Sequence record: MK962753.1
Strand: one strand, 5' to 3'
DNA length: 64,000 nt
DNA from: Shigella phage JK32
How positions within the stretch are numbered: the stretch's first letter is position 1; every line of letters begins with the position of its first letter. The position numbers and the translations under genes are program-made. Under the pieces are notes generated by a model. That model was not told the DNA's origin. It saw nothing but the letters and a program-made list of their open reading frames with translations, and did no database searches. Below, one piece after another: positions 1,734 through 40,830 of this stretch.

Positions 1734-1811
1734 GTAATATCCTCTTTTTTAATTGCATAACGGAACTACAATTAAAAACATAACAAATATTTCACAACTT
1801 TTACACTCTTA

Positions 1812-2537
1812 TTATTTAAGCGTGTGGAATTGGCTGTGTTTAGTCTCTCGCACCTTGACAGACCCATCGCGTTTGATATAATAGATCAGTGACTTGAGGG
1901 TGTCGTGTACATACGCGTGCGGGAAACGTTCTGGATACTTCTTCCAATCTGGAGTATTAACGATCCAGTCGAAAATCCACCACGGGCAGGAGTAGTAACC
2001 ACGACCGCCACCGATCAAGCAAATGGTCGGACGGAAACCAGTAAGATCGCAAAATGAGTCAGTGTCATGTGCTGGGGAACGATGCTCTGCTTCGTCAGAG
2101 AAAATGTTTGCTACCGGAGATTCCGCTTTAACTTCCGATGCTTCTTCAAAATCTAACTTAACTTCTTCGACCACTGGTTCAACTGCTGGAGATTCTTCTT
2201 TTGTTTCTTCAATGACGATCTCAGGTTCTTTCATTGCTTCAACCAGAGACGGATCAACTTCGTCGAATACCACTTTATCATCTGCGGTGTCTGCTGCCAG
2301 AATAAGATCGTTAATACTGGTTCCCTCTTCTGGGGTTTCTTCTTCCATTTCGGACGCCAGTTTAGTTAATTCGGTTTCTACGAACTCGATCATATTCTCT
2401 AGCGAGAGCGTCTTTTTGACCTTGATATCAAATTGTTTTGCGTAGTCCGCTAATTCTGTTTTAGCGGTTTTCTGTGCTTCTTTGTCGTCGGACGCCGCAA
2501 TAGCGCGGAGTTCTTCGAAATATTCTTTATCAAACAT
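1812..2537 (-). CDS. hypothetical protein, acidic central region and Cys/Trp-rich C-terminus (positional counterpart of T4 inh, unverified)
   Basis: 241-aa ORF, SD AGGAGAA 6 nt upstream of ATG. Confidence 0.5.
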   Translation of the reverse strand: MFDKEYFEELRAIAASDDKEAQKTAKTELADYAKQFDIKVKKTLSLENMIEFVETELTKLASEMEEETPEEGTSINDLILAADTADDKVVFDEVDPSLVEAMKEPEIVIEETKEESPAVEPVVEEVKLDFEEASEVKAESPVANIFSDEAEHRSPAHDTDSFCDLTGFRPTICLIGGGRGYYSCPWWIFDWIVNTPDWKKYPERFPHAYVHDTLKSLIYYIKRDGSVKVRETKHSQFHTLK

Positions 2538-2563
2538 GTTATTCTCCTGATTGGGGGTGTTTG

Positions 2564-2571
2564 TATAAATA
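2564..2571 (+). promoter_or_regulatory. T4-type late promoter box TATAAATA upstream of uvsW
   Basis: Exact TATAAATA ~37 nt upstream of uvsW ATG. Confidence 0.5.
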
Positions 2572-2607
2572 TTTGTATACTGTATTTATTGAGTGAGGCT
2601 ATTCGCT

Positions 2608-4110
2608 ATGCAAGATATTAAAATTCACTTTCTGAACTACTCTCATGTTCAAATTGAATGTAGCGATTCAATTTTATTAGAAATGCGAGATTATTTTAGT
2701 TTTGAAGTCGAGGGAGCGCGGTTTCAAAAAAGATTTAAGTATGGTGGATGGGATGGGCGTATTCGTCTTTTAGATTACAATGGAAAGCTGCCAATCGGCC
2801 TAACTAAAACCGTGGGAATCTTCGCTAAAAATATGGGCTATAGCGTATGGGTAGACCCTCGCTTATTCGAAAAAGAACAAGTTACAGAAGAAGAAATTAC
2901 AAAATGGTGTAATGATCTGGAATTATATTCCGGTGCTAACAGGATCACCCCGCATTGGTATCAATCAAAGGCTGTCTTTGAAGGTATTCATCATAAACGC
3001 CGTATGTTAGTTTTGCCTACGTCCGCTGGTAAATCTGCGATTGCTTGTATGTTGTCTCGCTGGTACTTAGAGAACTACGAAGGGAAAGTGCTGATCATCG
3101 TTCCTACCACGTCGCTAGTGCTGCAAATGCGTGATGATTTTGTTGATTATCGCCAGTTTCCTTATGAAGCAATTCATACTATCATGAGCGGTACTAGTAA
3201 ACACGTAGGTGATCGCCTGATCGTTGTTAGTACATGGCAATCTGCATGTAAACAGCCTCGTGAGTGGTTCCAACAATTTGGGATGGTAATTGTTGATGAA
3301 TGTCACAAGGCCACTGCTAAAAACCTGCTAAACATCGTTACTGATATGGATCATTGCCAATTTAAGATCGGCATGACTGGTTCCCCTCGTGACGGGAAAG
3401 CTAACATGATGCAGTATGTCGGGCTTTTCGGTGATATTTCTAAGATCGTGAGTATTGACCGCCTGATGGAAGAAGGTCAAGTGACAAAACTGAAAATTAA
3501 CTGTCTTTTCCTTCGTTATACCGATGAGGAATGTAGCGCGGTTAAGGGGAGAGAATATGCGGAAGAGATCAAGTATATTACATCTAACCCACGACGAAAT
3601 AAGTTTGCTTGCAATTTGGCGCTAAAACTCGCTAAGAAGGGCGAAAACGTATTCCTTATGTTCCGCAATACTAAGCACGGAAAACTTATGTATGACGCGT
3701 TACAGAAGGTACACGACAAGGTTTATTATATTGACGGTGGAGTTAAGACAGAAGAACGTGATGAATTTAAGAAAATGGCGGAGGGTGACACCGGGATCAT
3801 TTGTGTTGCGTCTTATGGTGTGTTCTCTACTGGTGTTTCCATCAAGAACTTGCACCATGTTATTTTCGGGCATCCAGTTAAAGAATCAACCATTGTTAGA
3901 CAGAGTATCGGTCGTGCATTGCGTAAACATGGTTCTAAGGATATTGCTACCGTTTGGGATCTTATCGATCATTTGGCGGTTAAGACAAAGAGCAAGAATG
4001 CTAAGAAACAGTTTAGCCACCTTAATTATGCTCTTAAACATGCGCTTTTGAGGATACAGCTTTACAATACCGATAAATTTGAGTATGCTACCAAGACTAT
4101 AGAAATCTAA
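2608..4110 (+). CDS. uvsW: UvsW DNA/RNA helicase (SF2)
   Basis: Strong similarity to remembered T4 UvsW along whole length (LPTSAGKS Walker A, DECH box); first ATG at 2608, track start 2593 is GTG. Confidence 0.9.
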   Translation: MQDIKIHFLNYSHVQIECSDSILLEMRDYFSFEVEGARFQKRFKYGGWDGRIRLLDYNGKLPIGLTKTVGIFAKNMGYSVWVDPRLFEKEQVTEEEITKWCNDLELYSGANRITPHWYQSKAVFEGIHHKRRMLVLPTSAGKSAIACMLSRWYLENYEGKVLIIVPTTSLVLQMRDDFVDYRQFPYEAIHTIMSGTSKHVGDRLIVVSTWQSACKQPREWFQQFGMVIVDECHKATAKNLLNIVTDMDHCQFKIGMTGSPRDGKANMMQYVGLFGDISKIVSIDRLMEEGQVTKLKINCLFLRYTDEECSAVKGREYAEEIKYITSNPRRNKFACNLALKLAKKGENVFLMFRNTKHGKLMYDALQKVHDKVYYIDGGVKTEERDEFKKMAEGDTGIICVASYGVFSTGVSIKNLHHVIFGHPVKESTIVRQSIGRALRKHGSKDIATVWDLIDHLAVKTKSKNAKKQFSHLNYALKHALLRIQLYNTDKFEYATKTIEI

Positions 4111-4158
4111 TGATACAAAAATACCCCGCGCTATGCGGGGTATGGAGGAAAGAAAATC

Positions 4159-5244
4159 ATGGAACTTGTATTTGCTAAAGATATAGAATTTGTAAAGAAA
4201 ACAAACAATAAGTCCCCTCAATATTATGAAGACCTTATTATCAAACGCTGTGCTGATCTGAAACTTAACTTTGATGGATTTATTCTTCCGTGGACTGGTG
4301 CTAAGACTAAATTAATTATATCAAATCCAGAAAACGGTTTGACACAGACAATAAATGTTAACAGAATGATAACTTCTACAAATCCAGGTGACAAACTAAA
4401 ACGAGCAAATGAATTGCACTACAAGTCAGAAGCAACAAAATATCTGTTAAACGCTGGTCTTGAATTTATTGGTTGGAATGGGGAATATAATAAAAGTAAT
4501 TCTCTGTCTACATGGTGCGACGCTAAATGTTTGATTCATGGAACTACTCATCGATATTTATTGCGAACTATAGTTCAGCATAAAGATATGGTAAAGACAA
4601 AATGTGTTGAATGTTATCGGATCAATGAATTGACGGAAAAATACGGTAGTGTTGATGCAGCAATAGAAGACCAAGAAAAGCGAGTTTTCGATATTGTTTC
4701 TAAGTTGGGGTATGAAATAAAACATTTCACTGGAGACCGATTGAGAGACAGCGAAACTGATGTAGTTCTATATTGCCCTAAACATGATGTTGAGTTTAGT
4801 CGAAATGTTTGCGACCTGGTTTATAAGAAATTTGTATACTGTCCTACATGCATTTCTGTTAATAAAGGAATGAGAAGTGGAATAATCCATTCCTCCAATA
4901 TAGGGGCATCTAAACCGACTTCAATCTATTTGCAAAATTTGAGCGATAAGTTTTGTAAGTTTGGCGTTAGCGTTCGCCCAAAAGTTAGGATGTATGAGCA
5001 ACAAAAAGTTTCTCAATATAACCACTCTCTTGTGTATGTTCACACTTTCGAAAAAGGCTGGATGGCTGCCGATGTGGAATATGGGATAAAACTTAACTTT
5101 AAAGGGCGTGGTGCTAGCCCTACAGCCGTTCCTGATGGGTATACGGAAACGAGAGATATTAGTATGCTCGATAGTATAAAACAGTTTATAGAAAACTATA
5201 TAAGAGAGAATCCAGAAAATCCTCTATACCTAACAGAAATTTAA
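4159..5244 (+). CDS. zinc-ribbon repeat protein with GIY-YIG/T5orf172-like C-terminus (putative homing-endonuclease-like accessory gene)
   Basis: 361-aa ORF, SD GGAGGAAAG; several CxxC...CxxC pairs; C-terminal PDGYTET motif shared with ORF 39536..40774. Confidence 0.7.
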   Translation: MELVFAKDIEFVKKTNNKSPQYYEDLIIKRCADLKLNFDGFILPWTGAKTKLIISNPENGLTQTINVNRMITSTNPGDKLKRANELHYKSEATKYLLNAGLEFIGWNGEYNKSNSLSTWCDAKCLIHGTTHRYLLRTIVQHKDMVKTKCVECYRINELTEKYGSVDAAIEDQEKRVFDIVSKLGYEIKHFTGDRLRDSETDVVLYCPKHDVEFSRNVCDLVYKKFVYCPTCISVNKGMRSGIIHSSNIGASKPTSIYLQNLSDKFCKFGVSVRPKVRMYEQQKVSQYNHSLVYVHTFEKGWMAADVEYGIKLNFKGRGASPTAVPDGYTETRDISMLDSIKQFIENYIRENPENPLYLTEI

Positions 5245-5249
5245 TAAAT

Positions 5250-5275
5250 AGGGGCATATAGCCCCTATATTTTTA
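5250..5275 (+). terminator. rho-independent terminator
   Basis: Hairpin AGGGGCATATAGCCCCT followed by T-rich run. Confidence 0.6.
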
Positions 5276-5289
5276 CGGAGATTAAAATA

Positions 5290-5529
5290 ATGAGTATTAG
5301 CTTTAAAAGATTCCTTGTAGAAGCGGTTATTGATGGTTTCATGAATAAAATCTATTCTTGTAATACTATGGAAGGTTTGGACGAGCTTGAAAAATATTAT
5401 GAAAAGCGCAAGAAAGAGACCGATCTCAAACCGTCAGATGATATCTCTATTCGTGATGCAATAGCAGGTCGGAGAAAACAGTTAGAGAGTGAAAACGAGC
5501 CGGAGGAGGAGCCGGAAGAGGATTTTTAA
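5290..5529 (+). CDS. small acidic protein (uvsW.1-like by position)
   Basis: 79-aa ORF with SD GGAG; acidic C-terminal tail. Confidence 0.55.
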   Translation: MSISFKRFLVEAVIDGFMNKIYSCNTMEGLDELEKYYEKRKKETDLKPSDDISIRDAIAGRRKQLESENEPEEEPEEDF

Positions 5530-5544
5530 TAAATCATCGGATAC

Positions 5545-5571
5545 AAAAAAAAGCCCCATCAATGATGGGGC
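5545..5571 (-). terminator. rho-independent terminator (bidirectional hairpin)
   Basis: Hairpin GCCCCATCAATGATGGGGC flanked by A8 on plus, giving a U-run on minus. Confidence 0.6.
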
Positions 5572-5609
5572 AAACAAAACCAATTAAAATCGGTTATCAA
5601 CAAATTCCT

Positions 5610-5783
5610 TTAGAGAATCAAAGTAGTTTCTACCAGTTGTTCTTGTTCTTCTGCACTTGATTCGCTCAAATGATTCCGGTTTGCAAATTCTTCGCAATAT
5701 CCCGGATGAACAACATGATTTTCGATTTTAACAGCCAACGCCATTTCGACTGGCTGTTTACATACAGCACAAATACAAGTCAT
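5610..5783 (-). CDS. small Cys-containing protein (uvsY.-2-like by position)
   Basis: ORF with strong SD AGGAGGAAGG before the second ATG (5783); track ORF extends to 5801. Confidence 0.5.
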   Translation of the reverse strand: MTCICAVCKQPVEMALAVKIENHVVHPGYCEEFANRNHLSESSAEEQEQLVETTLIL

Positions 5784-5813
5784 AAATCCTTCCTCCTGCA
5801 TATATTTAGTGTC

Positions 5814-6221
5814 TTACTTTCCAGACTCAAGCATACGCAACTCTATAGCATTCTTGATCGCGAATCCTCGCGATTTGATTATATCAAGAGCCTTGCCAGC
5901 AAAATCCATAACCATTTGATAATAAGCAATTTTTGTGTCCAATGGTAGGATATCATCATCTGCCGCCATCACAACTTTCAATTCTGATGTGGCGTACTCA
6001 ACTCTACACCATTCATCACTACGATTAGTGTAAAAGTCAAGTTTATTTTTTGTGGCTTTCTTTTTCTTTGCTTCCAGCGCAATGATCTCGCGCTTTGCTT
6101 CACTATACACACGAAGCCATTTAGAGTAAACTACAGGGTTATTAAGTGCTTCCCATTGTAGCTTTGTTGCGTCGATCTTGACGTCAGCGTCAAGCTGGTC
6201 TTTGAGTTCATTCAGGTCCAT
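5814..6221 (-). CDS. uvsY: UvsY recombination mediator
   Basis: Matches remembered T4 UvsY (KSRGFAIK C-terminus); first ATG at 6221 with SD GAGGTG, track start is TTG. Confidence 0.9.
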   Translation of the reverse strand: MDLNELKDQLDADVKIDATKLQWEALNNPVVYSKWLRVYSEAKREIIALEAKKKKATKNKLDFYTNRSDEWCRVEYATSELKVVMAADDDILPLDTKIAYYQMVMDFAGKALDIIKSRGFAIKNAIELRMLESGK

Positions 6222-6236
6222 AGTAAAACACCTCAA

Positions 6237-6623
6237 TCATTTAGACAATCTAACTCTAAGTTGTTCTAACTCATCTGGATTGTCTATAACAGAAAAATAA
6301 ACCGTTACGATAATCGAGTTCTCATCATACTGCGGAGTTACGTCTACGTCAAGCCTTTTTACTCGTGGTTCGTAGTTTCTTATCGATTCTGTGATATTCT
6401 TAGACAAGGTATCCACAGTCAATGGGTTGATGTTTTCGAATAGTGCGCGGTTTAGATCACATCCAAAGTTAGGATCAAACGGGCGAGATCCCTTAGCCGT
6501 GGTTATGATCAGCAATATGGAATCTTTAACCGCTTTAATCCCTGTGTTCTTTTTAATATCGTTGTTCCATGCTCGCTTAAACTCTAGATTTAAGTCAGTG
6601 TACATCTGGTTAACTGTTGTCAT
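6237..6623 (-). CDS. 25: baseplate wedge subunit gp25
   Basis: Matches remembered T4 gp25 (KGSRPFDP-FGCDL motif); 128 aa. Confidence 0.9.
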   Translation of the reverse strand: MTTVNQMYTDLNLEFKRAWNNDIKKNTGIKAVKDSILLIITTAKGSRPFDPNFGCDLNRALFENINPLTVDTLSKNITESIRNYEPRVKRLDVDVTPQYDENSIIVTVYFSVIDNPDELEQLRVRLSK

Positions 6624-6630
6624 AACTACC

Positions 6631-7260
6631 TCAAAGGATCGTCAGAAATTCATTAAGACCCCTGATCGAATGAATACCGGACTCCCCGCACTCACACTTG
6701 ATCGGCACTGCCAGTGTGATTTGTGGTCCTGTCAACTCATCGATGATAGTCTCTACATGTTCTGTTGTCAACATGCTTAGTATGGTGTCGAAGTCTTGCT
6801 CGTTTAGGTCATTAATATCAAATTCCTGATTATCTATGACAATATAATCAATACAAGCAATTACCATCTGCATGATATCGTCATCTTCTGTAAAACGCGG
6901 AGGACGGAATTTAATTTTAACCCCTCCTAAATCTAACAGATATGGTTCTGTGTCTGGGATCTGTGTCCGTTCAACGTTAAGATTGTATTCTTTCTCTTTG
7001 TTACATACTCCACACACCCACGTAGATTTGAAATTTTCTTTTGCTAGGCTATGACACCATAGCATAAGGAATAGATATTCAGCCTCGCACTTCTCTAGCT
7101 CTAATGCGTTAATTCCTGTACATTCATTGATAATGTCTAATACCGCTTCCTTAAGACGTCCAGTGCTCTTATATTCTACTAATTTTTGAAATTCTTCATA
7201 GGTGAATGCTCTAGCGGTGATCGTCTTATCACCTAACTTGATCTTGAAAATATGTTGCAT
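6631..7260 (-). CDS. 26: baseplate hub subunit gp26
   Basis: Size and position equal to T4 gene 26; ATG at 7260 with SD AAGAGGTG. Confidence 0.7.
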   Translation of the reverse strand: MQHIFKIKLGDKTITARAFTYEEFQKLVEYKSTGRLKEAVLDIINECTGINALELEKCEAEYLFLMLWCHSLAKENFKSTWVCGVCNKEKEYNLNVERTQIPDTEPYLLDLGGVKIKFRPPRFTEDDDIMQMVIACIDYIVIDNQEFDINDLNEQDFDTILSMLTTEHVETIIDELTGPQITLAVPIKCECGESGIHSIRGLNEFLTIL

Positions 7261-7301
7261 AGTATACACCTCTTATGATACATAGAAATTATTTAGTATT
7301 T

Positions 7302-7309
7302 TATAAATA
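7302..7309 (+). promoter_or_regulatory. late promoter box TATAAATA upstream of gene 51
   Basis: Exact TATAAATA ~21 nt upstream of ATG 7330. Confidence 0.5.
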
Positions 7310-7329
7310 CCCGAAAGGGGGATTGTATT

Positions 7330-8103
7330 ATGAATGTTATACGAATTAAAATGCCAGATGGCGGGGCTAAACGTTTTAAGCCATTCACTGTAAAAGATTA
7401 TCGTGATTTTCTTTTAGTTTCGGCTGATATGAAAGGCAATCCATCGGAGGAACAACTGATTCTGGATGAATTGCTGGAGGAATTATACCCTGATGTGGAC
7501 CCGATATTCCGAGAATATATTTTCCTGAACGTTTTTACTAGCTCAATAGGCAAAACAAAATTACCACTTTCTTTTAAGTGTCCAACCTGTGGTAAGGAAA
7601 AACGAATACTGTTAAACCTTGCTGTTCCGGCACTGCAACCAATCGTCCTAGAAACGGCTGGGCTTAAAATTAAGTTTAAGTATGTGAAACCATCAAGCGA
7701 CTACGCAAAAACGTTTCTAGAAGCTATTGAGAGCGTTTCTGACGGTGATCATGAGTATGTATGGACCGAATTGCCGGAGGAAGTGCGCGATCAGGTTATA
7801 GATTCGATATCCTTCGCAGAATTTGAAACCATAGTAAAGAAAATGCACACCATTTTGATTGAGCAGAAGATCAAATGTTGTGATACACACGAATTAAGAT
7901 ATACTGATTTGTTGGGGTTATATAAACTAATCCTTAATCCAGATGAGCTTTTTACTTTTTATAGGATTAATCATTTGCTTGTAAAAAGTAGTTATACGTT
8001 TGGTGATCTAATGGATATGTTGCCAGTAGAAAGAAATATCGCCCTAACATTAGTAGAAAAAGACGTTAAAGAGGCAAATAATGCAAAGACCCGGATTTCC
8101 TAA
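7330..8103 (+). CDS. 51: baseplate hub assembly protein gp51
   Basis: 257 aa, divergent from 26 as in T4; synteny and size. Confidence 0.7.
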   Translation: MNVIRIKMPDGGAKRFKPFTVKDYRDFLLVSADMKGNPSEEQLILDELLEELYPDVDPIFREYIFLNVFTSSIGKTKLPLSFKCPTCGKEKRILLNLAVPALQPIVLETAGLKIKFKYVKPSSDYAKTFLEAIESVSDGDHEYVWTELPEEVRDQVIDSISFAEFETIVKKMHTILIEQKIKCCDTHELRYTDLLGLYKLILNPDELFTFYRINHLLVKSSYTFGDLMDMLPVERNIALTLVEKDVKEANNAKTRIS

Positions 8104-9190
8104 CGTCTCTATAAAGCTATATCAGGACTATGAAGCATTTTTGGAAAATAGATTTGTTGAATTGGGAGCAACCTTCATTACAATGACATTACGAGATTCT
8201 CTTCGTGGTGTCAATGAAGGTCTACTACAGATCTATGATTCTAAGGCGCTTCATACGAAATTAGCAGGAACAGAGATTATACAAATTTCATTATCAACGG
8301 CTAATACTGAACAAGTATTCAACCGGATATATGGTATCGCGCATAGTAATGTGACCGTTGACTCTAAGGCCGATAATATAATAACCTTCCAGTTAAAGAG
8401 CTACCATGAAACGCTGAATCTAAAGTTTTCTCGCGCTACCGACACTAACGCGATGAATAACATCACCAGTATGATAGACGCGATCTATAAGAATGTTCCC
8501 TTGTGGAAACCTACCATTACAGGAGTAAACGTATTCATTCCTAAGTGTCCGTGGGTTAGTACCGTCAATGACTATTTTGAATATGTGAGAACACATGGTC
8601 AGAGTGTAGACAACGAATCGTTCGTTTACTGTTGGGAAGACTTTGACGGGATCAAGATCACCGATCATAAACTACTAATGCAGGGTGATCCAATTCCTGC
8701 TATCGTCACCGAGCCTACCCTAACAGGACAATTCATGGATATGAGCGAATATTTGATGGTGTTTAACTTTGAGTGGGATACTAAGAGTAATGCGGTAACA
8801 AAAAACTCATTCGCTAATGTCACTTACACAACAATTGATTTCATCACGAAGCAGTATAACAAGATTGTAGTGGGTAATGGTGATAACATAGCTCATTTTG
8901 CACATGGTGGTGCCTATGGTAATTTGACATATAAAAACGCGTATCTTGAAGGTTCTAAACTGGCAACTTTTGGACAATTTGATTCCTATGCCAGCGCGGT
9001 GTGTCATGGTAATTTCTCTCTACGTCCGGCACAAAAGCTAAGATTCTTTGATGCTAAACAGCAAATTCGCACCGACTTTATTGTCGATGAAGTTGTTCAT
9101 GAAATTTGTCGAGAACAATCATTAACACATATTCACATGTTTAGTCATAGTGAGATTTTGAAAGATGTACAATTTGAAGGTAAAATGTGA
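8081..9190 (+). CDS. 27: baseplate hub subunit gp27
   Basis: 369 aa; synteny and size (T4 gp27 391 aa). Confidence 0.7.
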   Translation: MQRPGFPNVSIKLYQDYEAFLENRFVELGATFITMTLRDSLRGVNEGLLQIYDSKALHTKLAGTEIIQISLSTANTEQVFNRIYGIAHSNVTVDSKADNIITFQLKSYHETLNLKFSRATDTNAMNNITSMIDAIYKNVPLWKPTITGVNVFIPKCPWVSTVNDYFEYVRTHGQSVDNESFVYCWEDFDGIKITDHKLLMQGDPIPAIVTEPTLTGQFMDMSEYLMVFNFEWDTKSNAVTKNSFANVTYTTIDFITKQYNKIVVGNGDNIAHFAHGGAYGNLTYKNAYLEGSKLATFGQFDSYASAVCHGNFSLRPAQKLRFFDAKQQIRTDFIVDEVVHEICREQSLTHIHMFSHSEILKDVQFEGKM

Positions 9191-9708
9191 TGACTGATAC
9201 TAAACCATCTCTAAAATTTGTTGTTCCTGTTAAAAATATTACCGTTAACGGGAAACATATCAAGATCCCTAAAATGGGGATCAAACAGCACAGATTATTA
9301 AAAGATGTTCGTAGCTGTGAAGAGACTTTAAAAATTCTACTTGATTCCATTCACCCAGGACTAAATGCAGCCGAAGCAGAATATGTTATGCTTCACTTAT
9401 GCTCTTTTAATGGCAAATGCCTAGAAGAAAAAGATGGTTTGCGATTGGATGATGTTTATATCTGTACAGAATCGGAGTTTGAATTTAATGGCGAGAAATT
9501 CAAGTTCACGCCTCCTATGCTCTCTTCTGAATATACACATGATGATGCAAATTTCCTAAGCAATCACTATCACGATCCTAGTGTAGACTTTCATAAATTC
9601 CCAGCGTTTATTATGAATTGGGCTACAGGATTAAGAAAAACCGTTGCCTTAGATACTCCAGAAGGTACTATCTATGGTGGCATTAACATATTGGATCGCC
9701 TATCATGA
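9190..9708 (+). CDS. 28: baseplate hub distal subunit gp28
   Basis: ~172 aa; ATG overlaps gp27 stop (TGATG). Confidence 0.65.
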   Translation: MTDTKPSLKFVVPVKNITVNGKHIKIPKMGIKQHRLLKDVRSCEETLKILLDSIHPGLNAAEAEYVMLHLCSFNGKCLEEKDGLRLDDVYICTESEFEFNGEKFKFTPPMLSSEYTHDDANFLSNHYHDPSVDFHKFPAFIMNWATGLRKTVALDTPEGTIYGGINILDRLS

Positions 9709-11384
9709 ATGACACATTAACATCATTTCGCGGAATGCGTAAAGACGCAGAAAATGATCCGCTTGATAAATTAGAAAAATTGGACAAACTAGATTCTATT
9801 GATAATCTTCAAGCTGCAAGCGAATTGGTAGCAGAGACAGTAGAACAAAAATCTAATGAAGTTATTGGAGCGGTGGAGGATAACACCGCCGCCAACGAAT
9901 TAACGGCAGAAAACACACAATCAACTGCTGGTAATACTCAAAAAACCTATGAAGAATTGCAGAAGTTGAACAGCTTTTCTTCTCAGATGAATGAGAAATT
10001 ACGCGGTTTTGGTGTTATGATGGAACGTAGATTCAGCGTAGTTTCTAAGATCACCAGTGGTCTTGATGCAATTGAAAAGGCCATCAAGGATGAGAAACAG
10101 CCGGAACAAACTATGCCATCACCGCAACCAGTTTTGCCGAGTGTACCGGAACAACAAAATAACGATAACTACCCTACGTTACCTAAGAAGCCTAAAGACG
10201 ATAAGAAAAAGAAAGATAAGAACAGCGACCGTGACAATAATATGCAAATGCTAATAAAAGCGGTTCGCGGTGGATTTAAAGAGACTGTTGGTGTATCCAA
10301 CAAGATATTCTCTATGCTGTTTAAAATGACCGTAACTGCATTGCTGGAAGTTGCCAAATGGGGAGCTATTCTTCTGGGGATCGTTGTTGCTATTGATACT
10401 CTTATGATTCATTTTAGATACTGGAGCACGCAGTTTAACGAGAACTTTGGCGGGTTTATGAAGAAGGCCGGAGGATGGGGTACATCACTAACAAGTATTT
10501 TAGCTAGTGTTGACGCGATTAAAGATTTTTGGGCTAAAAAACAATATGGTGATCTAGTTTGGGAAATTGTTAAAGGCATCGGTAAATCATTAAAAGATGC
10601 ATTCTTCCAGTTAGATAAAATTGTCACTCAAGGCGTAGCGTCTGTATTGCGAACTATTCCTATGATGGGTGATGTTGCTGATACTATGGAATATAACGCG
10701 CTAAAACAAGCTAAAGAGCATGGTGGATATAAACTTACACCAGAAGAAAATAAACTTTATCTTCGTAAGAAAAAAGAAGAAGATATGGAAAAAGGTAAAC
10801 TTGCTAAAGCTAAATTAGCCGTTGAGAAATATAATCAGCCTTTGGGGATGCAAACAGAAATTTTGTTGTCGCCCGAAGAACAAAATGCTGTAGATAGATA
10901 TGAAGAATTGAAGTCTGTGAGTGAGGAAAAATATTTGCGTAGTGGTGCTATTACTAGCGATGCAGAATCTGACTTAAAAAGAAATATTTCTATGTTGGAT
11001 TCGCTTAAGCCAAACTTACATGACAAACAGATTGCCGAACTTGATGCTAATGTAAATGAATATCGATCTTTGGTTAATGATGACTCATTGCTTTCTACTG
11101 ATCGCAGAATGATTCAGGATCTGCTTAATCGTTATGACAAACTTCGTGCGGATAAAAACGCTAAGGTAACAGTAACCGCGCCTCCACCGGATGAAACCGA
11201 TACAGCAAAACAAGCAACGGCAATAGAACAGGGGCAATTACAGAATATCAGGAATGATAATTCTATTTCTAATACAGCCAACGTTGCAAACACGCAGATC
11301 TATAACAATAATAGAACGGTGCAGATAACACGGCCTCAAACTAGTACGCCTTCTCCCGGCCTATTACAGAAAGGAATAGTTTAA
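9705..11384 (+). CDS. 29: baseplate hub / tail length determinator gp29
   Basis: 559 aa; ATGA overlap with gp28; synteny and size. Confidence 0.7.
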   Translation: MNDTLTSFRGMRKDAENDPLDKLEKLDKLDSIDNLQAASELVAETVEQKSNEVIGAVEDNTAANELTAENTQSTAGNTQKTYEELQKLNSFSSQMNEKLRGFGVMMERRFSVVSKITSGLDAIEKAIKDEKQPEQTMPSPQPVLPSVPEQQNNDNYPTLPKKPKDDKKKKDKNSDRDNNMQMLIKAVRGGFKETVGVSNKIFSMLFKMTVTALLEVAKWGAILLGIVVAIDTLMIHFRYWSTQFNENFGGFMKKAGGWGTSLTSILASVDAIKDFWAKKQYGDLVWEIVKGIGKSLKDAFFQLDKIVTQGVASVLRTIPMMGDVADTMEYNALKQAKEHGGYKLTPEENKLYLRKKKEEDMEKGKLAKAKLAVEKYNQPLGMQTEILLSPEEQNAVDRYEELKSVSEEKYLRSGAITSDAESDLKRNISMLDSLKPNLHDKQIAELDANVNEYRSLVNDDSLLSTDRRMIQDLLNRYDKLRADKNAKVTVTAPPPDETDTAKQATAIEQGQLQNIRNDNSISNTANVANTQIYNNNRTVQITRPQTSTPSPGLLQKGIV

Positions 11385-11385
11385 T

Positions 11386-12432
11386 ATGAAAATTAAAATT
11401 TTGGATGATGCTAATGACGCCTTAAAAAAAGGCGTCAAAGCGTCTGCTGGGTTTACTCAAAAACAAGACAAGTCAACTTTAACCGCTCAATTTCCATCTG
11501 AACGAGCTAGCGGTAATGATTCGTCTGGTATATACATAAATGACCTTTATAGTAATGGCTTGTTGTTTACTGCCTATGATTATAGAGAACGTGTTACTAG
11601 TTCTCTTCGTGATTTTAGAAATGAGCACAGTACATTACGTGGATTTGGTGCGAATGGGAAAATAGGGTCAAAAGATTTTTATAAAACATCGTTTGACCGT
11701 GATGCTGTTGCTAATATCCTGCTTCCTCGTAGTCAATCAGATGTTGATGCGGTAAGTCACAAGTTTAATGATGTTGGTGAATCTCTCGTTACTCGTGGTG
11801 GTGGTACTATTTCTGGTGCATTATCTGCTATGGCATCGACCGCAGTATTTGGTGGTTTGGAAAGTTTGACAGGTGGTTATCTTGCGGATAAAAACGAGCA
11901 GATCTATAATACCGCTCGTAGTATGTATGCTGGGGCAGATCCTAGAACTAAAAACTACGTCTGGCACTTAACCCCACGTAGTATTGAAGACCTGCGAAAT
12001 ATCCTGATTATCTATGAAACGTTTGTAGAATTGTCTTATGGATCTAGTGGTATTTCCAGTACCGCAAAACAATTAAAAGCGGAAGTTGATGCATGGTATA
12101 AAAAGACAATTCTTTCTAAAACGGTTCCAGAAGGTGCTGATACAACGGGTACTGTATTTGAGGGAATAACTGACTTTTTGACAAACGTAACCACTGTGTC
12201 GAATCCTACTATATGGATGGTCTCAAATTTCGGTAAGAGATCTGCTTATGAGGGACGTAATGACTCTTTCGGACCAGCGCAGATCACTAACGTAAGACTT
12301 GATAAATCACCAGATGGTAAATTTGGTGGCCTGGCAATATCTCCTAACTTACCGAGTACCTTTGTTTTGGAAGTATCGTTTAGGGAGATTCTTACTCTTT
12401 CCCGTGGTACTGTATTTGGGAGTCAATTATAA
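11386..12432 (+). CDS. 48: baseplate-tail tube junction protein gp48
   Basis: 348 aa; synteny and size. Confidence 0.7.
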   Translation: MKIKILDDANDALKKGVKASAGFTQKQDKSTLTAQFPSERASGNDSSGIYINDLYSNGLLFTAYDYRERVTSSLRDFRNEHSTLRGFGANGKIGSKDFYKTSFDRDAVANILLPRSQSDVDAVSHKFNDVGESLVTRGGGTISGALSAMASTAVFGGLESLTGGYLADKNEQIYNTARSMYAGADPRTKNYVWHLTPRSIEDLRNILIIYETFVELSYGSSGISSTAKQLKAEVDAWYKKTILSKTVPEGADTTGTVFEGITDFLTNVTTVSNPTIWMVSNFGKRSAYEGRNDSFGPAQITNVRLDKSPDGKFGGLAISPNLPSTFVLEVSFREILTLSRGTVFGSQL

Positions 12433-13361
12433 TGTTTGATTTAAATGATTTCAACGAACAAGCCGCTAATCTAGACTTTCAGCGATCTAATCTATTTTCG
12501 GTGGCGTTTGCCACCGTTCCTAGTAGCAAGACACAGCAAATTCTAGAAAATTTTGGTGGTGCTATTCATGATATTATACCTGGTAAATTAAATGATTATT
12601 TTGGTATTACAGAGGGTGATTATACCGATGCCGTAACAAATTTGGCTATACATGGAGTGCGTAGAGCCGTTACATCGTCCGGTGTCAAAAAGTATCTTTT
12701 AGGTGCAATGTCATCCCGCGTAGTTCAATCTCTTCTGGGGCAATTTGAAGTTGGTACATATGTCATGGATTGGTTCAATATGGCATATAAGACAAGCGGT
12801 TTGATGGTATATGCTGTTAAAGTTCCAGAAAACCGATTGAGTTATGAAATGGACAGAAACCACAATGCGCCTAACATTAGAATTACTGGACGTGATTATG
12901 ACCCGTTGATTCTTAGCTTTAGAATGGACGCTAGCGCGTCTAATTACAGGGCGATGCAGGATTGGGTTAACTCAGTAGAAGACCCCGTTACAGGGCTTCG
13001 TGCGCTTCCTGTTGACGTTGAAGCAGATATTCAGGTCAACTTACATAACCGAATGGGAGTTCCTCACACGATCATGATGTTTAATGGTTGTGTTCCTGTT
13101 GGTGTGAGTTCCCCTGAATTAAGCTATGAAAATAACAACGAAATCACAACATTCGATGTTACTTTTGCGTATAGGACTATGCAAACTGGTGCTGTAGGAG
13201 AGCAAGCCGCGCGAGAATGGATTGAGGATAAGGCAATAAACCTGATTCAAAATACTATTGGTGATGGTACATCTGGATCGTTGACCGCTGCTGGTAGTGC
13301 GTTATCTCGCCTACAGGGTGTTGGTGGTAGGATAGTTAATTCTATTACTAGGTTGTTTTAA
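12432..13361 (+). CDS. 54: baseplate tail tube initiator gp54
   Basis: 309 aa; TAATG coupling to gp48; synteny and size. Confidence 0.7.
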   Translation: MFDLNDFNEQAANLDFQRSNLFSVAFATVPSSKTQQILENFGGAIHDIIPGKLNDYFGITEGDYTDAVTNLAIHGVRRAVTSSGVKKYLLGAMSSRVVQSLLGQFEVGTYVMDWFNMAYKTSGLMVYAVKVPENRLSYEMDRNHNAPNIRITGRDYDPLILSFRMDASASNYRAMQDWVNSVEDPVTGLRALPVDVEADIQVNLHNRMGVPHTIMMFNGCVPVGVSSPELSYENNNEITTFDVTFAYRTMQTGAVGEQAAREWIEDKAINLIQNTIGDGTSGSLTAAGSALSRLQGVGGRIVNSITRLF

Positions 13362-13365
13362 TGTT

Positions 13366-13388
13366 AAAAGGGGCATTGCGCCCCTTTT
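13366..13388. terminator. bidirectional rho-independent terminator between convergent genes
   Basis: AAAAGGGGCATTGCGCCCCTTTT hairpin with A/T runs on both sides. Confidence 0.65.
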
Positions 13389-13390
13389 AA

Positions 13391-13903
13391 TTAATTTAGT
13401 ATATCTTCACACTGTTTACGCAGTTTATACCGGTATTCTTTAGAACTCAGCAATTGAACTTTTTCATAATCTCCAGACTCATATGCACTTGACAGGTCGT
13501 CTTGATATGCTGCCTCTACCCCGATTCGACAAATGTCATATTTTCGTGCTTTCTTCAAGTCCAATTGTTCTCGCTCAAACTCTTTTCTTCTTTTCTCTAA
13601 ATCTTCCTGATAGCTCTTATTTCTGCGATCTATCTTATCTTGAATCTCTGCGATTCTTTGTTGTGCTTCTTGTGGTAGTCCTATACGCGCTGCTGCCTCA
13701 TCTTTTTTCTGTAGCATATCAATCACGCAATGTTCAGGGTCTTGATATACAAATTGCTTGACTTGCGAATGATTGTACCATTGAACACAATATTCTTCAA
13801 CTTGCTGTATTGATGCTGTTGCGACTCGATAATCTTTTAACCCAGCGCACCCATTAAGCATAGCCACTAAAGCCGCAAGACCAATCAGTTTAATAATTTT
13901 CAT
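13391..13903 (-). CDS. predicted lipoprotein with coiled-coil region
   Basis: 170 aa; signal peptide with lipobox LNGC; ATGA overlap with upstream ART paralog; SD GGTGAGGTGA. Confidence 0.7.
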   Translation of the reverse strand: MKIIKLIGLAALVAMLNGCAGLKDYRVATASIQQVEEYCVQWYNHSQVKQFVYQDPEHCVIDMLQKKDEAAARIGLPQEAQQRIAEIQDKIDRRNKSYQEDLEKRRKEFEREQLDLKKARKYDICRIGVEAAYQDDLSSAYESGDYEKVQLLSSKEYRYKLRKQCEDILN

Positions 13904-17144: not shown

Positions 17145-17180
17145 TTGATACTCCTTAGTAGTTCGTTTCGGTATGTGTGC

Positions 17181-17209
17181 ATTATAGGGGATCGATGATC
17201 CCCTGTCAA
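17181..17209 (-). promoter_or_regulatory. early promoter with palindromic spacer
   Basis: TTGACA, spacer GGGGATCATCGATCCCC (17 nt, perfect palindrome), TATAAT. Confidence 0.7.
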
Positions 17210-17216
17210 CAACTTT

Positions 17217-17735: not shown

Positions 17736-17736
17736 G

Positions 17737-19030: not shown

Positions 19031-19070
19031 TGTTTGATTCTCCTAAGTAGTATCTCGTCTTGATGTGTGT

Positions 19071-39519: not shown

Positions 39520-39548
39520 ATTATACACTATTGCGTTACGCTGTCAAC
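39520..39548 (-). promoter_or_regulatory. early promoter
   Basis: TTGACA, 17 nt, TATAAT. Confidence 0.6.
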
Positions 39549-40774
39549 TCTTTTTCAAAAGTTTTTACGATATACATGATAGTGCTCAATTCTGACGGCG
39601 CTACTGTTTCTGTGTAGCCATCCGGCATATCTTCTTTTGAGATATAGGAAGTTTTACCTTTCATCGCTTCCTTGATCTTGTTCTCTAATTCTAAGATCTT
39701 TTGACCATCTTGTAAAGTCAATTCATAAAAGATCTCGTGATCGAATTTAGATTTTGCTGATTGGTTTCTCATACGTTCTCTTGTTGTCAAATTGGTTATT
39801 CCAAATTTAACACCTTCAAAAACGTCTCGTCTTAACAATTTTTGAATATATAATGTTCCTTGTTTTAAACGTTTGTAACCAGATTTCGTACACGAAGGAC
39901 ATCTCTTATGCGTTCTTGTTATGCTATGTATAGTTGGTGTCCAGACGCTACCACATCCACATAACATTGATATTCTTGTTGATGACCCGTTATACTCATC
40001 GATAATTCCATTATATTTGATGTTTTCGGATTTACATATAGAGTATATTATTTTTTCATAGTGCTCTAATGGTTTAATTCTAAGACTTGAATTATTTTTA
40101 TATGCACATATTCTGCAATTATAACCTCTAAGAAAACTAGTTACATCAGTTGTATATGCGTGACCTCCGGTGCATTGTATAGTAAGTTTGGTATCATGTG
40201 TGATATCGTTATCAAGTAAAGTTATTATTTTGTAATTAATTGCTGAACATCTTTTCAAGATTTCTGATTTGTAATACGTTGATTTTTTATTCGTCTCTTG
40301 TATATTTTTTGTGTGACATTGTGGACATCTAGTTCCTTTCTTGGTGAAATGTGTTACTGTTGGTGTATATATGTGTCCATCTAAACATTCAATCATTATT
40401 TTTGTTTTTAATTTATTCGAAGTCCATTCACCAACAACGCCACGATATTTCAACTTTTCGGATTTACATATTTCTATAATTTGTTTCTCTTGTTGTTCTT
40501 TTGTTATATATTCTCGCTTCTTGCTTTTTTGTTTTGCACATTTTGGGCATCTACTGCCTTGTTTTATACTAGATACGATAGGTTCCCAATAATGACCGCA
40601 CTTACAAAGTAAGGCCGTGCGAGTTCTATTCCCGATACATTCACCAATAAACCCCAAAAAGTTTATATCATCGGAAGAACACACATCGTGCATAAATTTT
40701 TCATGTTCTAACATCTTTTTAATTTTGCTGGTGGATAGCATATTGACTATATCTTTAACGAAATATGTTTTCAT
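39536..40774 (-). CDS. zinc-ribbon repeat protein with GIY-YIG/T5orf172-like C-terminus (putative homing-endonuclease-like accessory gene)
   Basis: ATG at 40774 with SD GGAGGA; four ~60-aa repeats C-x-C-G-H ... CPxC; C-terminal KFGITN ... R ... PDGYTET; paralog of 4159..5244. Confidence 0.7.
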   Translation of the reverse strand: MKTYFVKDIVNMLSTSKIKKMLEHEKFMHDVCSSDDINFLGFIGECIGNRTRTALLCKCGHYWEPIVSSIKQGSRCPKCAKQKSKKREYITKEQQEKQIIEICKSEKLKYRGVVGEWTSNKLKTKIMIECLDGHIYTPTVTHFTKKGTRCPQCHTKNIQETNKKSTYYKSEILKRCSAINYKIITLLDNDITHDTKLTIQCTGGHAYTTDVTSFLRGYNCRICAYKNNSSLRIKPLEHYEKIIYSICKSENIKYNGIIDEYNGSSTRISMLCGCGSVWTPTIHSITRTHKRCPSCTKSGYKRLKQGTLYIQKLLRRDVFEGVKFGITNLTTRERMRNQSAKSKFDHEIFYELTLQDGQKILELENKIKEAMKGKTSYISKEDMPDGYTETVAPSELSTIMYIVKTFEKELTA

Positions 40775-40802
40775 TTTTATCCTCCGTTGTTTCGATGAGT
40801 GC

Positions 40803-40830
40803 ATTATACATTATCTCGGATCGGTGTCAA
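40803..40830 (-). promoter_or_regulatory. early promoter
   Basis: TTGACA, 16 nt, TATAAT. Confidence 0.6.

What the first reader, a model, noticed from the sequence alone, without database searches (positions are those of the whole stretch)
4159..5244. Zinc-ribbon repeat plus GIY-YIG/T5orf172-like protein inserted after uvsW (paralog 1 of 2)
A 361-aa ORF with multiple CxxC...CxxC modules and a C-terminal segment ending in PDGYTET, bounded by stem-loop terminators on both sides, sits where T4 has only small uvsW-proximal ORFs. A larger paralog occurs at 39536..40774. Two copies of a nuclease-like, zinc-finger-rich gene at unrelated loci between conserved genes is the classic footprint of free-standing homing endonuclease genes.
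Basis: partly seen in the sequence, partly recalled or inferred. Interest (0 to 1): 0.55.

Follow-up and report, generated by a model that had tools for sequence, protein, structure and literature searches.

The report
Homing endonuclease gene inserted after uvsW
This is a selfish "homing endonuclease" gene (zinc-finger DNA-binding modules plus a GIY-YIG-type nuclease) that has inserted itself between two conserved repair genes of an RB49-like coliphage, exactly where the genome switches from one parental lineage to another; it is a clear new example of a recently described class, not a new kind of element.

The parts
2564..2571 (+). T4-type late-promoter consensus TATAAATA upstream of uvsW. 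It is the nearest such motif upstream of the inserted ORF and the likely source of its transcription by read-through.
   Evidence: 5 exact matches in 64 kb, none between 2571 and 7302. Function is inferred from the T4 late-promoter consensus (established knowledge).
2608..4110 (+). uvsW helicase gene (500 aa from the ATG used in RB49), RB49/Makalu-type allele. This is the left flank of the insert.
   Evidence: 94-96% nt identity to RB49, JSE and Makalu_002; 74% to AV108 and PTE-Eco09.
4087..4110 (+). Last 7 sense codons plus the stop of uvsW (A-T-K-T-I-E-I-*). They are synonymously recoded at every third position (4089, 4092, ... 4107) in the two insert-bearing genomes only. Candidate immunised half of the homing target, or a short donor-derived co-conversion tract.
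   Evidence: 7 of 7 codons differ from Makalu_002 with the same peptide. The rate elsewhere in the gene is 8.7%; P ~2e-5 after correction for position.
4102..4110 (+). Left copy of the 9-nt direct repeat GAAATCTAA (end of uvsW).
   Evidence: sequence read directly. Its partner is at 5236-5244.
4111..4158 (+). Leader of the inserted cassette: hairpin 4121-4143 (9-bp G+C-rich stem) followed by Shine-Dalgarno GGAGG at 4144-4148.
   Evidence: Absent from all empty-site relatives.
4159..5244 (+). Free-standing homing endonuclease gene, 361 aa.
4216..4386 (+). Module 1 (aa ~20-76): CapR-like fold without cysteines. Conserved in the subfamily (G40, F41, P44).
   Evidence: (CapR PF21817, E 1.2e-4 / 7e-4, below the Pfam cutoff).
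4387..4638 (+). Module 2 (aa ~77-160): CapR-type zinc module, C124xxH127...C149xxC152.
   Evidence: CapR E 0.18; ligands conserved in the subfamily members that have this module.
4651..4863 (+). Module 3 (aa ~165-235): zinc module, C206xxH209...C228xxC231. C206, H209 and C228 are invariant; C231 is conserved in at least 90% of members.
4906..5208 (+). GIY-YIG-fold (T5orf172/MUG113-like) nuclease domain, aa ~250-350. Invariant residues: Y257, K267, G269, R277, E307, G327, E330, T331.
5236..5244 (+). Right copy of the 9-nt repeat, GAAATTTAA. These are the last E-I-stop codons of the ORF and are identical to the end of AV108-type uvsW. The junction truncates the ancestral ORF.
   Evidence: 12 of 12 subfamily relatives continue for roughly 30-55 more residues, most ending in an ELDLSPLEAL-like motif.
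5248..5268 (+). Ancestral uvsW terminator-like hairpin with a T-run. It now lies downstream of the inserted ORF.
   Evidence: Present in RB49, JSE, AV108 and PTE-Eco09 directly after uvsW.
5290..5529 (+). uvsW.1 (79 aa). First gene of the right flank.
5236..13400 (.). AV108/PTE-Eco09-type block (uvsW.1, uvsY, gp25, gp26, gp51, gp27-29, gp48, gp54). Its left edge is the insert. It is 92-97% identical to AV108/PTE-Eco09 as far as the fetched loci reach (to ~11600), and 73-79% identical to RB49.
   Evidence: The right edge lies somewhere in ~13350-13845 and is approximate.
39536..40804 (-). Second family member (422 aa) between the frd-side ORF and gene 32. It has three Pfam CapR stretches (four CxxC motifs) and the same nuclease domain.

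Best explanation
The ORF is a free-standing homing endonuclease gene (HEG) of the CapR-zinc-finger + T5orf172-like GIY-YIG class. It entered a Krischvirus genome between the uvsW stop codon and the uvsW terminator.

Proposed mechanism (inferred). The gene is co-transcribed late with uvsW. Its three tandem CapR-type modules bind a specific sequence in co-infecting Krischvirus genomes that lack the insert. That sequence is most likely the conserved 3' end of uvsW plus the uvsW/uvsW.1 spacer. The flexibly tethered GIY-YIG domain then cuts nearby, possibly ~21-23 bp upstream of the insertion point. Phage recombination repairs the break from the insert-bearing genome, copying in the gene together with flanking markers.

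The carrier genome would be protected for two reasons: the insertion splits the site, and the last seven uvsW codons are synonymously recoded. The same process, or recombination focused at this break point, explains why the insert sits exactly at the switch between an RB49/Makalu-type uvsW and an ~8 kb AV108-type baseplate-hub block.

Shown here: gene structure, fold, conserved catalytic-type residues, sporadic distribution, junction anatomy, mosaic boundary, purifying selection. Inferred: DNA cleavage, identity of the target, and ongoing mobility.
For: Distribution. Only Whisky among 58 Krischvirus records with this uvsW has the insert. RB49, JSE, AV108, PTE-Eco09, Makalu_002 and LF73P4 have a 42-43 bp spacer with the same hairpin.

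Foreign origin. GC3 is 28%, against 40% for uvsW. No close relative was found in IMG/VR. The nearest full-length relatives are 36-40% identical metagenomic proteins.

DNA-binding modules. CapR-type repeats with conserved CxxH...CxxC. The CapR cysteines are required for DNA binding (PMC8096241). A T5orf172 nuclease, Odn, cleaves DNA in vitro and is inactivated by E180A (PMC8263062).

Function maintained. Window versus Whisky: 16 synonymous and 3 non-synonymous changes, dN/dS 0.047, P 6e-9.

Junction footprints. A 9-nt repeat flanks the insert. The right junction truncates a tail that is conserved in the subfamily. All 7 terminal uvsW codons are recoded. The empty site is an island of 83-93% identity between haplotypes that are 57-77% identical nearby.

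Mosaic boundary. Identity to RB49 is 93.7% up to 4111 and 73% from 5236. The reverse holds for AV108 (74.5%, then 92.5%).

Precedent. T5orf172/CapR HEGs at boundaries of genetic exchange (PMC10448857). T4 segE lies at inh/uvsW and cuts uvsW (PMC2988022). AV108 and PTE-Eco09 carry a SegE-type gene there, at the other edge of the same block.
Against: No cleavage, target or inheritance data exist for this protein or for any close relative.

The helix-1 His/Tyr typical of GIY-YIG enzymes appears to be Gln in this family. This rests on the profile alignment and has not been verified structurally.

The copy lacks the conserved C-terminal tail of its subfamily, so its regulation or activity may be altered.

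The right junction retains the hairpin and 9 nt of the empty-site sequence. If recognition lies only there, the carrier genome would not be immune.

The 7-codon recoding could simply be a piece of a distant donor: P is 0.005 at AV108-level divergence.

Only two insert-bearing genomes are known, and they are close relatives, so the mosaic boundary counts as one evolutionary event.
Confidence: 0.75

Rival explanations
1. Domesticated or re-purposed derivative of a homing endonuclease. The protein no longer homes. It serves the phage as a sequence-specific DNA-binding regulator (as PLE CapR does), or as a weapon against competitors or satellites (as ICP1 Odn does).
For: Strong purifying selection (dN/dS 0.047) shows the protein is useful to something. 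The copy has lost the subfamily's conserved C-terminal tail. CapR and Odn are documented precedents for both kinds of re-use (PMC8096241, PMC8263062). I-TevI doubles as a repressor (PMC2988022).
Against: All invariant nuclease-core residues are intact, which argues against a binding-only role. The gene is very rare at this locus (2 genomes), lies at a recombination junction, and has a recoded flank. Those features are expected of a selfish element, not of a host-beneficial gene. Purifying selection is also expected for an actively homing gene. No satellite or target is known.
Confidence: 0.13
2. An ordinary accessory (moron-like) gene, or an ancestral gene lost from most relatives. Its position at the mosaic boundary would be coincidental, with general homologous recombination producing the chimera.
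For: T-even genomes are mosaics with many variable small genes. Only one independent occurrence of the boundary is documented (the window and Whisky share it).
Against: The ancestral terminator hairpin and spacer are intact downstream of the insert. The ORF's last codons are those of uvsW. The 9-nt repeat and the truncated tail indicate insertion, not repeated precise loss. GC3 differs from the flanks. The protein has the two-part architecture of a known HEG class. Across ~48 kb compared with RB49 there is only one large divergent block, and its edge coincides with the insert to the nucleotide. In AV108 and PTE-Eco09 the other edge of the same block carries a SegE-type HEG.
Confidence: 0.07
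3. Transposon-like insertion, with the 9-nt direct repeat GAAATYTAA as a target-site duplication.
For: A 9-nt imperfect direct repeat flanks the 1134-bp insert.
Against: There is no transposase or integrase. There are no terminal inverted repeats, only short chance-level matches. The repeat equals the last three codons of uvsW and closes the ORF's reading frame, which fits a micro-homology junction better.
Confidence: 0.03

Closest known systems
T5orf172-domain homing endonuclease genes with CapR/DUF723/DUF4379 zinc-finger arrays (ICP1 gp53/121/130/165/174, T5-like and Plateaulakevirus phages; Barth, Dunham & Seed 2023, PMC10448857; Netter et al. 2021, PMC8096241)
   Same: N-terminal tandem CapR-type zinc modules plus a C-terminal GIY-YIG-superfamily domain. 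Free-standing gene between conserved or essential genes. Sits at a boundary of genetic exchange. Several diverged copies per genome. DNA-binding arrays shuffle while the nuclease domain is kept (paralog 2 versus RB49p240).
   Different: The C-terminal domain belongs to a PDGYTET clade that Pfam T5orf172 and MUG113 do not detect on this protein. The first module has no zinc ligands. The host is a T4-related Krischvirus, a group not discussed in that work, which notes that T4 itself has no T5orf172 genes. This copy lacks its subfamily's C-terminal tail.
ICP1 Odn (gp88), the one T5orf172 nuclease with shown activity (Barth et al. 2021, PMC8263062)
   Same: GIY-YIG-like core with conserved Arg and Glu. 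If the alignment is right, it also shares the absence of the helix-1 His/Tyr. Modular design: a DNA-binding domain plus a nuclease.
   Different: Odn uses a RepA_N DNA-binding domain and targets a satellite origin. Here the binding domain is a CapR array, and the context points to homing rather than defence.
T4 Seg endonucleases, especially SegE (inh/uvsW, cuts uvsW) and SegG (32/59, cuts gene 32) (Edgell, Gibb & Belfort 2010, PMC2988022)
   Same: Free-standing GIY-YIG-superfamily genes in intergenic spacers of T-even-type genomes. They cause localised marker exclusion and co-conversion. The same neighbourhoods (uvsW, gene 32) are used. The inferred distance between the cut and the insertion site is of the I-TevI/Seg kind.
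   Different: Seg proteins have an N-terminal canonical GIY-YIG domain and a C-terminal DNA-binding region. Here the order is reversed (binding modules N-terminal, nuclease C-terminal) and the nuclease is from the T5orf172-like branch. There is no detectable sequence similarity to Seg proteins.
Krischvirus paralogues annotated only as 'endonuclease' or 'hypothetical' (RB49p240; ECD7 gp128 between gp2 and gp3; T5.141)
   Same: Same PHROG (681). Same PDGYTET nuclease domain and CapR modules.
   Different: 23-32% identity. They occupy different loci. None is at uvsW/uvsW.1.

Membership tests
GIY-YIG nuclease superfamily | Alpha/beta fold with a three-stranded antiparallel sheet (beta-beta-alpha-beta-alpha...) | tested here: met
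GIY-YIG nuclease superfamily | 'GIY' and 'YIG' motifs 10-11 residues apart on strands 1 and 2 | tested here: met
   S-I-Y257 ... K267-F268-G269. Y257, K267 and G269 are invariant in 41 diverse homologues. The spacing Y257 to F268 is 11 residues. The second Tyr is Phe or Tyr across the family.
GIY-YIG nuclease superfamily | Conserved Arg in helix 1 and a metal-binding Glu | tested here: met
   R277 and E307 are invariant. They align with the Arg and Glu of UPF0213 1ZG2 in the profile alignment. The equivalence to I-TevI R27/E75 is inferred, not superposed residue by residue.
GIY-YIG nuclease superfamily | His/Tyr four residues after the Arg in helix 1 | tested here: not met
   The position is Q281 (family consensus Q), aligned to His of 1ZG2. 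The active T5orf172 nuclease Odn is reported to deviate in the same way (PMC8263062).
GIY-YIG nuclease superfamily | Mg2+-dependent DNA cleavage | not testable with these tools
   Requires purified protein.
Pfam T5orf172 (PF10544) / MUG113 (PF13455) | Score above the Pfam gathering threshold | tested here: not met
   No T5orf172 hit at E<=10. MUG113 scores 13.6 bits against a cutoff of 22.3 on the isolated domain. However, 26 of 41 (MUG113) and 18 of 41 (T5orf172) homologous domains hit at E<=0.1, best 6.6e-8 and 1.3e-7. I read this as a sister clade within the same superfamily branch, not a model-defined member.
Pfam CapR homology domain (PF21817) | Score above the gathering threshold; CxxC/H...CxxC zinc site | tested here: inconclusive
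   22.6 bits against a cutoff of 24.2 on the whole protein. Module 1 gives E 7e-4, module 2 gives 0.18, and module 3 gives no hit. Paralog 2, T5.141, P0003 and RB49p240 pass clearly and align module for module. Zinc ligands are present in modules 2 and 3 only.
PHROG 681 ('endonuclease') | Profile match | tested here: met
   E 1.6e-36 over aa 14-353. Paralog 2 scores 1.7e-82.
Free-standing homing endonuclease genes (functional class) | Sporadic presence at a fixed site between conserved genes, with intact empty sites in relatives | tested here: met
   1 of 58 Krischvirus records. Empty sites are 42-43 bp.
Free-standing homing endonuclease genes (functional class) | Flanking co-conversion or a mosaic boundary at the insert | tested here: met
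   Identity switches at 4111/5236. A 21-nt recoded tract abuts the insert.
Free-standing homing endonuclease genes (functional class) | Cleaves the insert-free allele; the carrier allele is resistant | not testable with these tools
   Only indirect evidence: the insertion splits the conserved empty-site sequence, and the uvsW end is recoded.
Free-standing homing endonuclease genes (functional class) | Super-Mendelian inheritance in mixed infection | not testable with these tools
   Requires phage crosses.

The most novel reading that the evidence does not exclude
The locus may preserve a natural record of a T5orf172-class homing reaction, something not yet mapped for any member of the class. 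On this reading, the enzyme binds the conserved uvsW-end/terminator sequence and cuts ~21-23 bp upstream of its insertion point, an I-TevI-like offset. The seven-codon synonymous recoding would be the immunity allele. The exact 55-nt tandem duplication in insert-free phage KMB43, whose joint lies 23 nt upstream of the insertion point, would be a mis-repaired cut. The homing event would also have carried an ~8 kb baseplate-hub module between Krischvirus lineages, making it a 'HEG island' bounded in other phages by a SegE-type gene. In addition, the conserved ELDLSPLEAL-type tail lost from this copy could be a regulatory or partner-binding peptide.
Probability: 0.3. Interest if true: 0.55.

Novelty: new member of a known kind. 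Interest (0 to 1): 0.36.

Why it matters
Homing endonucleases shape which alleles survive when related phages co-infect a cell, and they are sources of programmable nucleases. The T5orf172/CapR class was recognised only recently, and no homing site has been mapped for it.

This locus offers a tractable E. coli system for mapping one. It has a rare insert, many sequenced insert-free relatives, and a sharply defined junction. It also has a candidate immunity patch of seven synonymous changes and a candidate repair scar in KMB43.

It also illustrates that, in T4-related phages, exchange of an essential baseplate-hub module is bounded by nuclease genes. That is relevant to phage taxonomy and to the engineering of therapeutic coliphages. 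It does not reveal a new kind of system.

Tried and rejected
- **Direct Pfam and NCBIfam scans** of the ORF, of its isolated C-terminal domain, and of the T5 and RB49 homologues. No T5orf172 or GIY-YIG hit; NCBIfam gave only noise. I therefore relied on family-wide scans, a domain profile and a structure model.
- **Word-indexed homology search with the single protein.** It returned only 4 hits. The exhaustive HMMER search was needed.
- **IMG/VR scan for close relatives.** None found.
- **Genomic context of the nearest look-up-able relative, P0002.** It lies next to a serine recombinase in a non-T4 contig, which says nothing about uvsW.
- **jackhmmer from one CapR module** to delimit the repeats in this ORF. 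It did not converge to useful domain calls. Modules were delimited from the AF2 model and the alignments instead.
- **Idea: the cluster of changes at the 5' end of uvsW.1 in the window is an immunity signature.** Rejected, because Whisky, which also carries the insert, has the AV108-type sequence there.
- **Idea: the whole 63-nt low-identity end of uvsW is specific to insert-bearing genomes.** Rejected. Its first ~40 nt are shared with four insert-free phages. Only the last 21 nt are specific.
- **Transposon reading of the 9-nt repeat.** Rejected: no terminal inverted repeats and no transposase.
- **A HEG at the right edge of the divergent block (~13.4-13.8 kb).** None is present in the window.
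Full report
**1. The observation**

The ORF listing shows a 361-aa ATG-initiated ORF at 4159..5244 on the + strand, ending ...AVPDGYTETRD...PLYLTEI. A second ORF at 39536..40804 on the - strand (422 aa; 412 aa from the ATG at 40774) also contains PDGYTET. BLASTP between the two finds one significant segment, the C-terminal ~100 residues (32% identity, E 2e-10). They are therefore paralogous in that domain only.

The ORF has ten cysteines. The only CxxC motifs are CVEC (149) and CPTC (228). Each lies about 20 residues after a CxxH (C124..H127, C206..H209).

Both flanking hairpins are real and more stable than shuffled sequence. Only the downstream one (5248-5268) is terminator-like on the coding strand.

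**2. Where we are**

Megablast places the window in the genus Krischvirus (RB49-like T-even relatives). The nearest record is Enterobacteria phage Whisky, at 97%.

The ORF lies between uvsW (2608..4110) and uvsW.1 (5290..5529). In RB49, JSE, AV108, PTE-Eco09, Makalu_002 and LF73P4 these two genes are separated by 42-43 bp containing one hairpin. Of 58 records that match this uvsW, only Whisky contains the ORF. tblastn finds no other copy above 60% identity in 50,697 phage records.

The protein collection holds one 99%-identical cluster on short contigs, and IMG/VR holds no close relative. The gene is therefore rare and sporadic at this site.

**3. Junction anatomy**

uvsW ends ...ATA GAA ATC TAA (4099-4110). 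The insert follows: a 48-nt leader with hairpin 4121-4143 and GGAGG at 4144-4148, then the ORF. The ORF ends ...CTA ACA GAA ATT TAA (to 5244). Directly after it comes TAAATAGGGGC...GCCCC...TTTTTACGGAGATTAAAA, the same hairpin and ribosome-binding region that follow uvsW in every empty-site phage.

The insert is thus 1134 bp, flanked by an imperfect 9-nt repeat (GAAATCTAA / GAAATTTAA). The ORF's final Glu-Ile-stop are in fact the last codons of an AV108-type uvsW.

The twelve closest relatives of the protein (27-39% identity) all continue past ...P(L/V)Y(L/I) for roughly another 30-55 acidic residues, most ending in a conserved ELDLSPLEAL-like motif. This ORF lacks that tail. The right junction therefore truncated an ancestral gene and borrowed the uvsW stop codon.

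There are no terminal inverted repeats and there is no transposase. GC3 of the ORF is 28%, against 40% for uvsW. All of this indicates insertion of foreign DNA, not loss from the relatives.

**4. The protein**

*Sequence searches.* Pfam gives only a sub-threshold CapR homology domain (22.6 bits against a cutoff of 24.2). Paralog 2, T5.141, RB49p240 and metagenomic relatives hit CapR, DUF723 and DUF4379 strongly. PHROG 681 'endonuclease' matches at 1.6e-36.

*Full-length model.* An AlphaFold model has mean pLDDT 81.8, with domains at 85-93 and linkers below 50. It shows three similar helix + three-strand + helix modules (aa ~20-76, 77-160, 165-235), a disordered linker (233-249), and a compact C-terminal domain.

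*Zinc sites.* In the subfamily alignment the CxxH...CxxC ligands of modules 2 and 3 are conserved. Module 1 has no ligand-position cysteines in any member, yet keeps conserved G40, F41 and P44.

*C-terminal domain.* It was modelled separately with 41 diverse homologues drawn from an exhaustive HMMER search (175 representatives at E<=1e-3). The model has pLDDT 94.3 and pTM 0.86, with the order beta-beta-alpha-beta-alpha...beta-alpha.
- The domain profile's only PDB sequence hit is UPF0213 protein 1ZG2 (E 0.038), aligning the Tyr, Gly, Arg and Glu positions.
- Scanning the 41 domains individually, 26 hit MUG113, 18 hit T5orf172 and 6 hit GIY-YIG (best E 6.6e-8, 1.3e-7 and 1.1e-5).
- Invariant residues are Y257, K267, G269, R277, E307, G327, E330 and T331. 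The spacings Y257-F268 (11) and F268-R277 (9) resemble the Y6, Y17, R27 spacing of I-TevI. The I-TevI numbers are from my own knowledge.
- The helix-1 His/Tyr is Gln here. The active T5orf172 nuclease Odn is reported to deviate in the same way (PMC8263062).

*Conclusion.* The domain is a GIY-YIG-superfamily nuclease fold from a clade next to T5orf172/MUG113, with the core residues intact. It is not a model-defined Pfam T5orf172 member.

**5. Is the gene alive?**

The window and Whisky copies differ at 19 nucleotides: 16 synonymous and 3 non-synonymous. dN/dS is 0.047, and the probability of 3 or fewer non-synonymous changes under neutrality is 6e-9. The truncated protein is therefore under purifying selection.

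The nearest late-promoter consensus (TATAAATA) is at 2564-2571, just upstream of uvsW, with no other before 7302. The upstream hairpin has no T-tail on the + strand. The ORF is therefore probably read through from uvsW and terminated at the old uvsW terminator. This is inferred.

**6. Footprints in the flanks**

*(a) Mosaic boundary.* Identity to RB49 and JSE is 93.7-95.1% from 1702 to 4111, then 72-73% from 5236 onwards. Identity to AV108 and PTE-Eco09 is 74% across uvsW, then 92-97% from 5236 to at least 11,600. Over the ~48 kb comparable with RB49, this is the only large divergent block (5236 to ~13,400; uvsW.1 through gp54). Its left edge is the insert.

In AV108 and PTE-Eco09 the divergent block starts one gene earlier, at uvsW. 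A different nuclease gene sits exactly at that edge, between inh and uvsW. It is SegE-type (PF19835, 2.5e-8). T4 segE occupies the same position and cuts uvsW (PMC2988022).

*(b) Recoded uvsW end.* Along uvsW, identity to RB49 is mostly 92-100% per 60-nt window, with dips to 88%. In the last 63 nt it drops to 68%. The first ~40 nt of that stretch are a variant also found in four insert-free phages: Makalu_001, Makalu_002, LF73P4 and KMB43. The last seven sense codons (4087-4107, peptide ATKTIEI) are different. They encode the same peptide as in Makalu_002, yet every third position differs (4089, 4092... 4107), and this occurs only in the two insert-bearing genomes. Elsewhere in the gene, 8.7% of same-amino-acid codons differ. 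That gives P ~4e-8 for seven in a row and ~2e-5 after allowing for position. At AV108-level divergence the figure is 0.005.

*(c) Conserved empty site.* The empty-site sequence (the last ~20 nt of uvsW plus the hairpin and ribosome-binding region) is 83-93% identical between the RB49-type and AV108-type haplotypes. Those haplotypes are 57-77% identical just upstream. Conserved sequence of this kind is what homing endonucleases typically target.

*(d) Possible repair scar.* Insert-free phage KMB43 has an exact 55-nt tandem duplication, equivalent to window 4033-4087. Its joint lies 23 nt upstream of the insertion point, and it truncates UvsW to 494 aa. This may be a mis-repaired break at that position. 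That is speculation.

**7. Mechanism**

The best-supported reading is a free-standing homing endonuclease gene. The CapR-type modules would bind a site at the uvsW end and spacer of insert-free genomes. The tethered GIY-YIG domain would cut nearby. Recombinational repair from the carrier genome would then copy in the gene and flanking markers. The carrier would be protected by the split site and the recoded codons.

Two literature results support the parts. The CapR cysteines are needed for DNA binding (PMC8096241). A T5orf172 domain cleaves DNA and is inactivated by a Glu-to-Ala change (PMC8263062). The overall picture, T5orf172/CapR genes at boundaries of genetic exchange, next to essential genes and with shuffled binding arrays, was described by Barth, Dunham & Seed (PMC10448857). 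That paper notes that T4 itself has no T5orf172 genes.

Paralog 2 shows the array shuffling directly. Its nuclease-domain DNA is 96% identical to RB49p240, while the zinc-finger part (39810-40768) has no nucleotide match. A third family member lies between gp2 and gp3 in ECD7-type phages.

**8. Rivals**

- *Domesticated regulator or defence nuclease.* Not excluded, since purifying selection fits it too. However, the intact catalytic core, the rarity of the gene, and the junction and mosaic footprints favour a selfish element.
- *Ancestral gene lost elsewhere, or a coincidental boundary.* Disfavoured by the junction anatomy and the composition.
- *Transposon.* No support.

**9. Novelty and score**

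This is a new, well-documented member of a recently described class, in a phage group where the class had only been annotated as 'endonuclease' or 'hypothetical'. Specialists would not be surprised by the class.

The useful extras are a precise candidate target, the immunity patch, and a tractable E. coli system for the first mapping of a T5orf172-type homing site. The truncated tail motif is a further lead. Interest 0.36.

Noticed in passing
L008 (phage vB-Eco-KMB43, OR525698) 1946-2055; equivalent to window 4033-4087: An exact 55-nt tandem duplication in the 3' end of uvsW of an insert-free relative. Its joint lies 23 nt upstream of the point where the endonuclease gene is inserted in the window. 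It creates a premature stop (UvsW 494 aa, ...KFEYA*). It may be a scar of a mis-repaired double-strand break.
   Followed up: partly
L006 1262-1993 (AV108) and L005 1262-1993 (PTE-Eco09), between inh and uvsW: These two phages have an empty uvsW/uvsW.1 site but carry a 243-aa SegE-type GIY-YIG endonuclease (PF19835, 2.5e-8). It sits exactly at the left edge of the same divergent uvsW-to-gp54 block, in the same position as T4 segE.
   Followed up: partly
window 39536-40804 (-), compared with L004 41400-42857 (RB49p240): The second family member has a nuclease-domain DNA 96% identical to RB49p240, but a zinc-finger array (39810-40768) with no nucleotide match to RB49. Lengths differ: 422 aa here, 485 aa in RB49, 486 aa in Whisky. 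The DNA-binding array has been swapped while the nuclease was kept.
   Followed up: partly
alignment A4 (relatives P0020-P0030, P0002); missing after aa 358 of the ORF (window ~5232): All 12 closest relatives have an acidic C-terminal extension of roughly 30-55 aa, most ending in a conserved ELDLSPLEAL-like peptide of unknown role (possibly a partner-binding motif). The window, Whisky and P0001 copies lack it.
   Followed up: no
window 4159-4215 (aa 1-19): A conserved N-terminal peptide, M-x-L-A-F-A-K-D-I-x-F ... S-P, is shared by the subfamily. A weaker form (MKTYF(V/A)KD(I/V)) occurs in paralog 2 and other Krischvirus members. Its function is unknown.
   Followed up: no
window 5290-5330: The first ~35 nt of uvsW.1 in the window differ from Whisky, AV108 and PTE-Eco09. 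There is an extra codon (MSIS... instead of MIS...) and several substitutions, some of them RB49-like. The rest of the gene is nearly identical. This is a small secondary mosaic patch next to the insert.
   Followed up: partly
window 37019-38239 (-): The thymidylate synthase (td) ORF is 406 aa (410 aa in RB49), about 120 aa longer than typical ThyA. The extra length is an internal segment with no obvious intein or intron signature. It appears to be a lineage feature.
   Followed up: no
window 17124-24036 and 58425-58724: Short (~70-115 nt) repeats recur between small early genes; each matches several RB49 intergenic regions at 75-91%. They are probably the promoter/stem-loop cassettes described for RB49-type phages. 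That attribution is from memory and was not checked.
   Followed up: no
L013 2438-3472 (ECD7 gp128); also Phi1, Cognac, G2248, FL37/38: A third locus for this endonuclease family in Krischviruses, between gp2 (DNA end protector) and gp3. These proteins are 26-28% identical to the ORF over its full length.
   Followed up: partly
window 4897-4912 versus 5248-5271: The linker-coding region of the ORF contains AATATAGGGGCAT. This repeats the left arm of the downstream terminator hairpin (13 nt, 1 mismatch) and is 11-nt complementary to its right arm. By my estimate this is about chance level.
   Followed up: no
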